DNA from: a virus | Taxonomy: Duplodnaviria; Heunggongvirae; Uroviricota; Caudoviricetes | DNA length: 16,069 nt | IMG/VR virus record: IMGVR_UViG_2526164651_000005 | Reading direction: 5' to 3' (one strand) | Shown here: positions 5,750 through 6,501 of the stretch, piece by piece | Position numbering within the stretch: position 1 is the first letter of the stretch | Layout: the number at the start of each line of letters is the position of its first letter | Translations under genes and position numbers: made by a program | The notes under the pieces: generated by a model | The model's input: the letters and a program-made list of their open reading frames with translations, nothing else | Databases searched by the model: none | What the model was told of the DNA's origin: nothing

Positions 5750-6028
5750 ATGCACACTTCAGGGAAATTTAATAAATCACTCAAAAAACGCAGAGACAGA
5801 ACAGAACCGAAATATCGCGCGTTAGACATGACAGAGCACGCTTTAAAGGTGGCAATCAGAACGATAGACCGCCACGCGGGGGAAGGATACGCGAAAGCAC
5901 ATCCCGAACTGATAAGCGCATTCATGACCACGACGGCGGCAAATTTTGCCACGCTGACAGAGCGGGAGATTGCCGAAGCGGAACAGGTAACAACAATCAA
6001 CGTTAAAACCGGAGAGGTGGAATCATGA
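5750..6028 (+). CDS. Hypothetical protein, 92 aa
   Basis: GAGGGGG upstream of the ATG at 5750. First of three tightly packed or overlapping ORFs after the origin. No family recognised. Confidence 0.5.
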   Translation: MHTSGKFNKSLKKRRDRTEPKYRALDMTEHALKVAIRTIDRHAGEGYAKAHPELISAFMTTTAANFATLTEREIAEAEQVTTINVKTGEVES

Positions 6029-6330
6029 GCGAACCAAAATTTGGTGAAAAATTTTACAAGCACAACGGACGGATCACGATTCTGCAAATAAGCGCAGCTA
6101 CACCAGGCTGGTGGGTTGAAACAGACGAAGGATCCTCACCCGTGGCATCATGGGCGCTTTGTGTGCTTAGTTACCCTGACCGCGATGTGTATCAGGATAT
6201 TCTGCCTGTGATATCCACTGACAAAGGCATGAAACCCGTAGACATCAAAAACATGGGGTTTCAGTGCGTAATGCTCACTGAAAAAATGATGGAAGAGATG
6301 AAAAAGAACAATGCCGGATCGCTTCACTGA
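6025..6330 (+). CDS. Hypothetical protein, 101 aa
   Basis: GGAGAGGTGG Shine-Dalgarno; start overlaps the upstream stop (ATGA). Confidence 0.55.
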   Translation: MSEPKFGEKFYKHNGRITILQISAATPGWWVETDEGSSPVASWALCVLSYPDRDVYQDILPVISTDKGMKPVDIKNMGFQCVMLTEKMMEEMKKNNAGSLH

Positions 6331-6339
6331 GGTGGCAAT

Positions 6340-6501
6340 ATGACAGCACAAATTGCAGCTTACGGGCGGCTGGTGGGCGACCCGCTGGTAAAACAGAGCA
6401 GCAAGGGCACACCGGAGCCGCCAACGGAGAACTACGCAGACCTGAGAAATGCAGTAAATCGCACTTACGCAGACATGGGGCTGAGCAAATTAGCAGAGTA
6501 G
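6340..6501 (+). CDS. Hypothetical small protein, 53 aa (MTAQIAAYGRLVGDPLVKQSSKG...)
   Basis: GAGGTGG Shine-Dalgarno 5 nt upstream of the ATG at 6340. Followed about 20 nt later by an intrinsic terminator. Found by manual translation. Confidence 0.4.
   Translation: MTAQIAAYGRLVGDPLVKQSSKGTPEPPTENYADLRNAVNRTYADMGLSKLAE

What the first reader, a model, noticed from the sequence alone, without database searches (positions are those of the whole stretch)
5750..6501. Three coupled small ORFs of unknown function between origin and capsid module
ORFs of 92, 101 and 53 aa each have a good Shine-Dalgarno sequence; the first two overlap (ATGA) and the third follows after 9 bp, and the set ends at an intrinsic terminator. 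None resembles a family I can name. In PICIs this position commonly holds helper-interference genes or accessory cargo, so the trio is a candidate for an uncharacterised interference or defence function.
Basis: inference. Interest (0 to 1): 0.6.

Follow-up and report, generated by a model that had tools for sequence, protein, structure and literature searches.

The report
Post-origin small genes of a satellite island
Two of the three small genes are real, conserved, satellite-specific genes of unknown function that normally precede the island's single-stranded-DNA-binding protein gene, and the third is a leftover of a 508-bp deletion that fused the start of that gene to the end of a regulator gene.

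Summary
The anatomy is as described: ORFs at 5750-6028, 6025-6330 and 6340-6501, ATGA overlap, 9-nt spacer, Shine-Dalgarno sequences, terminator at 6523-6545. The window is a capsid-forming PICI between roxA and phoQ, 99.5% identical to one in Shigella flexneri.

The trio is not one unit. ORF3 is a remnant. A 508-bp deletion at a CAC microhomology joined codons 1-24 of the island's ssb to the last 29 codons of perC. The terminator is perC's own.

ORF1 (phrog_1231) and ORF2 (phrog_27268) are real genes, with dN/dS of 0.1-0.45. In about 110 related loci, ORF1 is the first gene after the origin. A full ssb follows it in 85 of 96 loci, and its stop overlaps the ssb start (ATGA) in 52 of 55 distinct junctions. 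This holds across three replication-initiator types and three packaging-module types. ORF1 occurs in 1303 of 5426 complete E. coli genomes. ORF2 is an optional insert found in 81 genomes. Distant relatives hold the same slot in PICIs of other Enterobacterales.

Neither matches Pfam, NCBIfam, PADLOC, Tai or any solved fold.

My best reading is an ssb-linked replication or ssDNA-handling accessory role, which is inferred and not shown. A defence or interference role is not excluded, especially for ORF2, but nothing found here positively supports it.

The parts
5454..5706 (.). Replication origin. It holds two oppositely oriented sets of GGTAGA(T/C)AA-type iterons (three tandem 9-nt copies at 5664-5699), directly downstream of the D5-type primase gene (3692-5443).
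   Evidence: direct families D1, D2, D4, D5; inverted pairs I1-I3, I5. The organisation matches that described for Gram-negative PICI origins in PMC6092414.
5750..6028 (+). ORF1, 92 aa, phrog_1231. It has a basic N-terminal segment (pI 11.1) and an acidic core predicted, at low confidence, as a helical hairpin. It ends in the conserved tail EQVTTINVKTGEVES. It is a PICI-specific gene that normally lies immediately upstream of ssb and is translationally coupled to it.
   Evidence: E = 2.9e-51; pLDDT 61; dN/dS 0.10-0.45; full ssb downstream in 85 of 96 loci; 1303 of 5426 E. coli genomes; ATGA overlap with ssb in 52 of 55 junctions.
6025..6330 (+). ORF2, 101 aa, phrog_27268. The predicted structure is beta-rich with a C-terminal helix. 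Conserved motif: PGWW...SPVA(A/S)WALC...ILPV...GM.P. It is an optional insert between ORF1 and ssb.
   Evidence: E = 7.6e-70; pLDDT 82.8, pTM 0.70; no significant fold match; dN/dS about 0.3; 81 of 5426 genomes, all at least 95% identical; distant relatives in the same slot in other PICIs.
6340..6412 (+). The 5' part of ORF3, which is the first 73 nt (24 codons) of the island's ssb gene. CAC at 6410-6412 is the 3-nt microhomology at the deletion joint.
   Evidence: alignment to the intact ssb of L002 at 7575-7985; phrog_44 SSB, residues 1-25, E = 0.087. In L003, PGAP annotates this stretch as an 'SSB, incomplete' pseudogene.
6413..6501 (+). The 3' part of ORF3, which is the last 29 codons plus stop of perC, read in perC's own frame.
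   Evidence: (PF06069 positions 50-77 of 90, 22.9 bits). 508 bp are missing relative to L002.
6523..6545 (+). Intrinsic terminator. It is the native terminator of perC and is identical in islands with intact ssb-perC.
   Evidence: invariant in the alignment with L002; -15.7 kcal/mol, z = -4.1.
6643..6908 (+). Context only: a 74-aa gene (phrog_1957, unknown function) followed by a second, identical copy of the 23-nt terminator (6886-6908). It is present in some related islands and absent in others.
   Evidence: (family D3).

Best explanation
Shown. The region is the 'post-origin module' shared by enterobacterial PICIs. Its intact form is ori - ORF1 - (ORF2) - ssb - (proQ-like) - perC - terminator. 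In this island, which is nearly identical to one in Shigella flexneri, a 508-bp deletion at a CAC microhomology removed most of ssb and the 5' two thirds of perC. It left an in-frame 53-codon chimera (ORF3) in front of perC's terminator. ORF3 has no OB fold and lacks the conserved PerC N-terminal core, so it is most likely an inert remnant. ORF1 and ORF2 are real, selectively maintained, PICI-specific protein genes.

Inferred. ORF1 is made together with the island's SSB through coupled translation. I propose that it works with SSB on the single-stranded DNA produced when the island replicates after induction, for example by modulating or targeting the satellite SSB. It would be an accessory rather than an essential replication factor. 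ORF2 is a small beta-rich protein whose relatives take the same first-after-origin position in other PICIs. I regard it as an optional component of the same early, nucleic-acid-handling or regulatory module, not as a defence gene. Its activity is unknown.
For: Deletion chimera. The same joint occurs in islands with different replication modules and in 3 of 5426 complete E. coli genomes. The exact 53-aa protein occurs on at least 1000 public contigs.

Real genes: dN/dS of 0.10-0.45; PHROG matches.

Conserved module: the architecture census of about 110 distinct loci shows ORF1 after D5-type primase, RepA-type helicase or DUF927 initiators, and before HK97-type or lambda-E-type capsid modules. 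A full ssb lies downstream in 85 of 96 ORF1 loci.

Coupling: ATGA stop/start overlap in 52 of 55 distinct ORF1-ssb junctions. The tail VTTINV is kept at protein level despite 4 synonymous changes in Citrobacter. An ORF2-family protein that directly precedes ssb carries the ORF1-type tail.

Accessory rather than essential: rep plus ori alone drive replication in EcCICFT073 (PMC6092414). ssb has been lost or broken independently several times.

The other genes of the module bind nucleic acids or regulate transcription: SSB, ProQ/FinO-like and PerC.

The slot is compact and built from few families. There are no defence-model hits.
Against: No direct evidence for any activity of ORF1 or ORF2. There is no family, motif or fold match. 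The ORF1 model has low confidence (pLDDT 61). Synteny and translational coupling can reflect shared regulation only. ORF1 and ORF2 stay intact here although ssb is gone, so they may act independently of SSB. Of the 12 loci that carry ORF2 without ORF1, 7 have no ssb. The census loci were retrieved by similarity and are not phylogenetically independent. The literature shows that the pri-adjacent region can hold immune genes, and no one has tested these two families.
Confidence: 0.45

Rival explanations
1. ORF1 and/or ORF2 are single-gene helper-phage interference or anti-phage or anti-defence proteins carried in the pri-adjacent accessory region.
For: A pri-adjacent accessory region with the Tai immune gene exists in Pectobacterium PICIs (PMC11364771). 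[quoted passage not shown] ORF2 is optional (81 versus 1303 E. coli genomes) and PICI-exclusive. Small proteins without family matches are typical of interference factors. Neither family has been tested.
Against: There is no similarity to TaiEcA or to PADLOC models. ORF1 is nearly invariant in presence and coupled to ssb, which is unlike cargo. ORF2 is at least 95% identical in all 81 E. coli genomes with dN/dS of about 0.3, so it shows no sign of diversifying turnover. The slot holds only a handful of recurring small families.
Confidence: 0.22
2. ORF1 and/or ORF2 are small transcription or post-transcription regulators of island late genes or host genes, like the neighbouring PerC, ProQ-like and RgdR proteins.
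Confidence: 0.13
3. ORF1-ORF2 form a toxin-antitoxin pair: two overlapping small genes, one helical and one beta-rich.
For: The ATGA overlap and sizes of about 90-100 aa. Foldseek lists MazF/Kid among its non-significant hits.
Confidence: 0.03
4. ORF3 is a functional new chimeric protein, retained because the SSB-N/PerC-C fusion does something.
For: The reading frame is open. The joint is shared by islands with different replication modules, and the exact protein is on at least 1000 contigs. RefSeq names it a PerC family regulator.
Against: It lacks the OB fold and the conserved PerC residues 1-50. PGAP calls the same sequence two pseudogene fragments in another genome. Its abundance is explained by clonal Shigella flexneri genomes. 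An in-frame outcome has a prior of 1 in 3. Other independent deletions and frameshifts of ssb exist.
Confidence: 0.05

Closest known systems
EcCIEDL933-type cf-PICI of E. coli O157:H7 (O-island 51 / CP-933C), the prototype capsid-forming PICI
   Same: Same roxA-side integration site and the same packaging module. Orthologues of ORF1 and ORF2 occupy the same position. ORF2 of the O157:H7 strain F6321 island is 98.4% identical at DNA level, and the layout was read from locus L130.
   Different: That island has a RepA-type helicase instead of the D5-type primase, and it keeps intact ssb (136 aa) and perC (90 aa). Here both are replaced by the 53-codon fusion. The published mutagenesis covered the packaging module only. 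Equating the F6321 island with EcCIEDL933 is my inference.
EcCICFT073, a classical E. coli PICI with RppA
   Same: primase - ori - ORF1 homologue (85 aa, 72% identical) - ssb (ATGA overlap) - perC, at the same chromosomal site next to phoQ.
   Different: It has no ORF2. Its packaging region is a lambda-E-like capsid gene, a decoration gene and RppA instead of a full HK97-type module. Its interference screen covered c1499-c1503 only and did not include the ORF1 homologue.
Tai (tail assembly inhibition) genes in the pri-adjacent accessory region of Pectobacterium PICIs (PMC11364771)
   Same: Position next to the replication gene in the middle of a PICI. Single genes without hits in PADLOC or DefenseFinder.
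   Different: TaiEcA is 204 aa and found mostly in phages. ORF1 and ORF2 are about 100 aa, absent from 50,697 phage records, and show no sequence or profile similarity to TaiEcA.
SSB (PF00436) and PerC (PF06069) families
   Same: The two halves of ORF3 are derived from these genes at 90-100% DNA identity to intact alleles.
   Different: Only 24 of 136 SSB residues and 29 of 82 PerC residues remain, and neither functional core is present.
ssb-linked small genes of conjugative-plasmid leading regions (ssb-psiB-ardA). This comes from my own knowledge and was not tested here.
   Same: Small proteins co-expressed with a mobile-element SSB at the moment the element's DNA is single-stranded or replicating.
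   Different: No sequence relationship. ORF1 and ORF2 are essentially absent from 72,556 plasmid records.

Membership tests
Capsid-forming PICI (context of the finding) | Integrase, AlpA, primase/replicase, HK97-type capsid, protease, portal, head-tail connectors, HNH, TerS and TerL present; no tail or lysis genes; about 14 kb | tested here: met
   Pfam hits for every component. RefSeq annotation of near-identical islands. The island ends before phoQ at 14609.
phrog_1231 / ORF1 family (PICI post-origin gene) | Sequence match to the family profile over its full length | tested here: met
   E = 2.9e-51, profile positions 3-83 of 83.
phrog_1231 / ORF1 family (PICI post-origin gene) | First gene after the iteron origin, with stop overlapping the start of the next gene (normally ssb) | tested here: met
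   The gap from replication gene to ORF1 has a median of about 210 nt. ATGA overlap with ssb in 52 of 55 junctions elsewhere. Here the overlap is with ORF2.
phrog_27268 / ORF2 family | Sequence match and the conserved G-W-W ... S-P-x-A-x-W-A-x-C ... L-P ... G-M-x-P residues | tested here: met
   E = 7.6e-70. Invariant columns G28, W29, W30, S38, P39, A41, W43, A44, C46, L60, P61, G68, M69, P71.
SSB (PF00436), for ORF3 | Complete OB-fold domain of about 100 residues | tested here: not met
   No Pfam SSB hit. Only residues 1-25 align to phrog_44 (E = 0.087). The intact neighbour allele scores 1.4e-15.
PerC (PF06069), for ORF3 | Score at or above Pfam's gathering threshold | tested here: met
   22.9 bits against a cut-off of 22.6, which is borderline.
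PerC (PF06069), for ORF3 | Conserved N-terminal region (profile positions 1-50), the part shared with PHROG transcription-activator families | tested here: not met
   Only profile positions 50-77 are matched. The activator PHROGs align to residues 1-52 of the intact protein. The alignment shows perC codons 1-53 deleted.
Tai immune system | Homology to TaiEcA (phi80 orf63) or TaiPect | tested here: not met
   BLASTP E = 1.0 and 0.18; hhalign probability 0.4%. No tblastn hit in any phage record. The TaiPect sequences themselves were not available.
Known anti-phage defence systems (PADLOC-DB v2) | Match to any defence protein model | tested here: not met
   No hit at E up to 1 for the three ORFs. 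Among the 46 members of the ORF2-family alignment (A4), only scattered hits at E about 0.01.
Anti-phage or interference activity in general | Reduced phage plating or burst when the gene is expressed | not testable with these tools
   Needs experiments. The published EcCICFT073 screen did not include the homologues.
Type II toxin-antitoxin pair | Obligate co-occurrence of the two genes | tested here: not met
   71 loci carry ORF1 alone, 12 carry ORF2 alone and 27 carry both.
Type II toxin-antitoxin pair | Toxin fold (MazF/CcdB-like) for ORF2 | tested here: not met

The most novel reading that the evidence does not exclude
ORF1 defines an unrecognised, PICI-exclusive partner of satellite-encoded SSB, present in about a quarter of E. 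coli genomes. It may let the island's SSB act selectively on island or helper ssDNA, for example to favour satellite replication or to blunt helper replication or host sensing of ssDNA. ORF2-family proteins may be a second, interchangeable occupant of the same slot with a previously unseen small beta fold. Alternatively, ORF2 may be a new single-protein interference factor.
Probability: 0.3. Interest if true: 0.55.

Novelty: new member of a known kind. Interest (0 to 1): 0.3.

Why it matters
PICIs and cf-PICIs are major vehicles of gene transfer in Enterobacterales, yet the block between origin and packaging genes has never been dissected. This analysis shows that the block is a compact, recombining module built around ssb, and that ORF1 is its most constant member. 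That gives PICI biologists two defined, testable genes in the prototype EcCIEDL933. It also warns against reading every small ORF in this slot as defence cargo. The ORF3 result is a practical annotation point: RefSeq names this deletion remnant a 'PerC family transcriptional regulator' in some genomes and two pseudogene fragments in another.

Tried and rejected
1. Family searches (Pfam, NCBIfam, PADLOC, PHROGs) for ORF1 and ORF2 returned only PHROG families of unknown function.

2. Profile searches against PDB sequences found nothing for ORF1. The ORF2 profile gave E = 1e-9 to 5e-15 against TAL effectors. I rejected these hits. No single stretch passes on its own ('0 stretches'). The score is a weak 22-residue resemblance ('LPVL..G..P') summed over many TAL repeats.

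4. I first inferred that the EcCICFT073 ORF1 homologue had been tested and found negative for lambda interference. Checking the plasmid list and mapping the primers showed that only c1499-c1503 were cloned, starting at the capsid gene. I withdrew the inference.

5. RgdR, the LEE regulator of O-island 51, is not one of these ORFs. It is the 99-aa DUF4222 gene at 3396-3695.

6. Tai homology was rejected. A scan for PICI-borne Tai loci returned only phi80-like phages.

7. The toxin-antitoxin idea was rejected on co-occurrence.

8. Rfam has no RNA family in the window. No sigma-70-like promoter was found on the + strand in 5300-7300.

9. Phage and plasmid collections hold essentially no ORF1 or ORF2.

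Full report
**Observation**

- ORF1 and ORF2 overlap in ATGA, and ORF3 starts 9 nt after the ORF2 stop.
- Each has a purine-rich SD-like motif. The ORF1 motif lies 11 nt from its ATG.
- A hairpin plus T-run follows at 6523-6545, with MFE -15.7 kcal/mol and z = -4.1.
- Upstream, at 5454-5706, are two oppositely oriented sets of GGTAGA(T/C)AA iterons. This is the origin layout described for Gram-negative PICIs (PMC6092414).

**Context**

Pfam assigns the following:

| Coordinates | Assignment |
|---|---|
| 1-1230 | integrase |
| 1605-1793 | AlpA |
| 3396-3695 | DUF4222 |
| 3692-5443 | D5-type primase |
| 7120-13508 | HK97-type capsid, S78 protease, portal, head completion, connector, HNH, TerS, TerL |
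| 14609-16069 (- strand) | PhoQ |

This is a complete capsid-forming PICI (10.1101/2022.09.08.507074) in the roxA-phoQ site. RefSeq annotation of near-identical islands agrees. The window is 99.5% identical to Shigella flexneri SFBU1023 over the region available.

**ORF3 is a deletion remnant**

Most related islands carry a 136-aa ssb and an 82-90-aa perC after the ORF2 orthologue.
- Alignment to one of them (L002) shows that ORF3 nt 1-73 are the start of ssb and the last 89 nt are the end of perC.
- 508 bp are missing, with a shared CAC at the joint. The deletion brings perC's frame into ssb's frame.
- Pfam sees only PerC profile positions 50-77 (22.9 bits, cut-off 22.6) and no SSB domain. 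PHROGs sees SSB residues 1-25.
- PGAP calls the same DNA 'PerC family transcriptional regulator' in two genomes and two pseudogene fragments in a third.
- The terminator is perC's own and is invariant in the alignment.

The identical joint occurs in three complete E. coli genomes of 5426. It also occurs in islands with different replication modules: a different primase/ori in STEC1587 and a RepA helicase in L043. The exact 53-aa protein is on at least 1000 public contigs, some of them named as Shigella flexneri.

Other, independent losses of ssb exist: a different deletion in L061, ORF1 joined directly to perC in L086, and frameshifts in L050 and L097. So ssb and perC are dispensable in the integrated state. 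ORF3 most likely has no function of its own.

**ORF1 and ORF2 are real genes**
- ORF1 matches phrog_1231 (E = 3e-51) and ORF2 matches phrog_27268 (E = 8e-70). Both families have unknown function.
- Pairwise dN/dS is 0.10-0.45 for ORF1, with dS up to 1.9, and about 0.3 for ORF2.
- ORF1 DNA is found in 1303 of 5426 complete E. coli genomes, with up to 5 copies per genome. ORF2 is in only 81, all at least 95% identical.
- Neither occurs in 50,697 phage records. In 72,556 plasmid records there are only a few, probably chromosomal or excised, cases.
- An exhaustive HMMER search for ORF2 found 7 cluster representatives among 1.84 billion. A profile search raised this to 63 proteins from Morganellaceae, Proteus, Providencia, Xenorhabdus, Serratia, Klebsiella, Salmonella, Citrobacter and E. 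coli. They share the motif PGWW...SPVAAWALC...ILPV...GM.P.

**Where the two families sit**

Gene neighbourhoods and a tblastn census of about 110 distinct loci give one picture:

[D5 primase | RepA helicase | DUF927 | Toprim-D5] - about 200-400 nt origin - ORF1 and/or ORF2 - ssb - (ProQ-like) - perC - (74-aa gene) - [HK97-type cf-PICI module | lambda-E-like capsid with RppA or Nu1-like TerS].

- ORF1 is followed by a full ssb in 85 of 96 evaluable loci.
- Its stop overlaps the ssb start (ATGA) in 52 of 55 distinct junctions.
- ORF2 lies between ORF1 and ssb (27 loci, 26 of them evaluable), or takes the first position itself (12 loci, 5 with ssb), or once precedes ORF1.
- The slot from replication gene to first capsid gene is 1.06-2.49 kb in 77 distinct versions. 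It contains only these six families plus at most one small unassigned gene.
- The first ~11 codons of ORF1 co-vary with the initiator type. A module joint therefore lies inside the 5' end of the gene.
- The C-terminal tail VTTINV is kept in Citrobacter through four synonymous changes. It is also appended to an ORF2-family protein that directly precedes ssb.

**Structure and family searches**
- AlphaFold2 gives ORF1 a low-confidence helical hairpin (pLDDT 61).
- It gives ORF2 a confident beta-rich domain with a C-terminal helix (pLDDT 82.8, pTM 0.70).
- Pfam, NCBIfam and PADLOC are negative for both proteins and for all alignment members.
- Strong-looking TAL-effector E-values from the ORF2 profile are a repeat-summing artefact.

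**Comparison with the literature**

A pri-adjacent accessory region carrying the Tai immune gene was shown in Pectobacterium PICIs (PMC11364771). Variable regions flanking the cf-PICI packaging operon are expected to hold immune systems.

However, ORF1 and ORF2 are unrelated to TaiEcA (phi80 orf63, 204 aa) by BLASTP and hhalign.

The EcCICFT073 interference screen is often cited for 'genes after the ori'. It in fact cloned c1499-c1503 only, starting at the capsid gene. I mapped the primers onto the CFT073 sequence, and the ORF1 homologue, ssb and perC were not included. The cf-PICI mutagenesis covered the packaging module only. So neither family has been tested.

In EcCICFT073, rep plus ori suffice for replication. 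Any replication role for ORF1 would therefore be accessory.

RgdR, the LEE regulator of O-island 51, is the DUF4222 gene at 3396-3695 (RGD at residues 20-22) and not one of these ORFs.

**Interpretation**

Shown:
- ORF3 is an ssb'-'perC deletion chimera ending at perC's terminator.
- ORF1 and ORF2 are conserved, PICI-exclusive genes of a compact post-origin module.
- ORF1 is the module's near-constant member and is translationally coupled to ssb.
- ORF2 is optional.

Inferred:
- ORF1 acts with the satellite SSB on ssDNA during island replication.
- ORF2 belongs to the same early nucleic-acid-handling or regulatory set.

I give this functional reading about 0.4-0.45. Interference, defence or anti-defence gets about 0.2, mainly for ORF2. 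A regulatory role gets about 0.13. A toxin-antitoxin pair is rejected, because the two families mostly occur without each other.

**Verdict**

This is an ordinary, already catalogued part of a known satellite type, with one gene remnant and two uncharacterised families. It is modestly interesting because the ORF1-ssb coupling is very widespread and untested. It is not a new kind of system.

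Noticed in passing
window 6523-6545 and 6886-6908 (flanking the gene at 6643-6867): Two identical 23-nt terminator hairpins (CAGCCGGAGCAATCCGGCTTTTT) bracket a 74-aa gene of unknown function (phrog_1957). That gene is present in some related islands and absent in others. It looks like a cassette inserted at, and duplicating, perC's terminator.
   Followed up: partly
window 7030-7077: A strong inverted repeat with 17-nt arms and a 14-nt loop (RNA fold -23.5 kcal/mol, z = -5.2). It lies in the 260-nt gap between the second terminator and the capsid gene. It could be an operator, a packaging (cos) element or a structured leader.
   Followed up: partly
window 3396-3695: The 99-aa DUF4222 protein upstream of the primase has the size and position of RgdR (ECs1581/C1493), the O-island-51 regulator of LEE and motility. 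It carries the RGD motif at residues 20-22.
   Followed up: partly
window 6489-6602 (L001 8029-8142, L132 4659-4772): RefSeq annotates a 37-aa ORF that runs across the terminator as 'trigger factor' (WP_105322309.1). This is almost certainly a spurious call with a propagated name.
   Followed up: no
window 5750-5782 and the ORF1 orthologues in L018-L097: The first ~11 codons of ORF1 co-vary with the type of replication initiator (MHTSGKFNKSLKK... with D5 primase, MT(Q/R)K... with RepA helicase). The recombination joint between the replication module and the post-origin module therefore lies inside the gene.
   Followed up: yes
L129 5001-5351; L117; L017 3660-3914: Mosaic variants were seen. 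One ORF2-family protein ends in the ORF1-type tail AEQVTTINVKNGEHTA and overlaps ssb. One island has the order ORF2-ORF1-ssb. One island has a second, 51%-identical ORF1 paralogue further downstream.
   Followed up: partly
L061/L100, L086, L050, L097: These loci show independent losses of the island ssb: a different deletion (ssb nt ~37 to perC nt ~85), ORF1 joined directly to perC, and two frameshifted ssb genes. ssb appears to be repeatedly lost from resident islands.
   Followed up: partly
window 7120-8325: The mechanical ORF starts at GTG 7120. RefSeq orthologues (385 aa) correspond to the ATG at 7169 (MQRIIELRQQK...), which is the more likely capsid start.
   Followed up: no
window 1851-3390: The region between alpA and the DUF4222 gene differs from the closest E. 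coli islands: ORFs of 248, 100 and 142 aa without Pfam hits here, versus YlcI/Icd/ash-like genes there. This is the variable region downstream of alpA mentioned in the cf-PICI literature.
   Followed up: no
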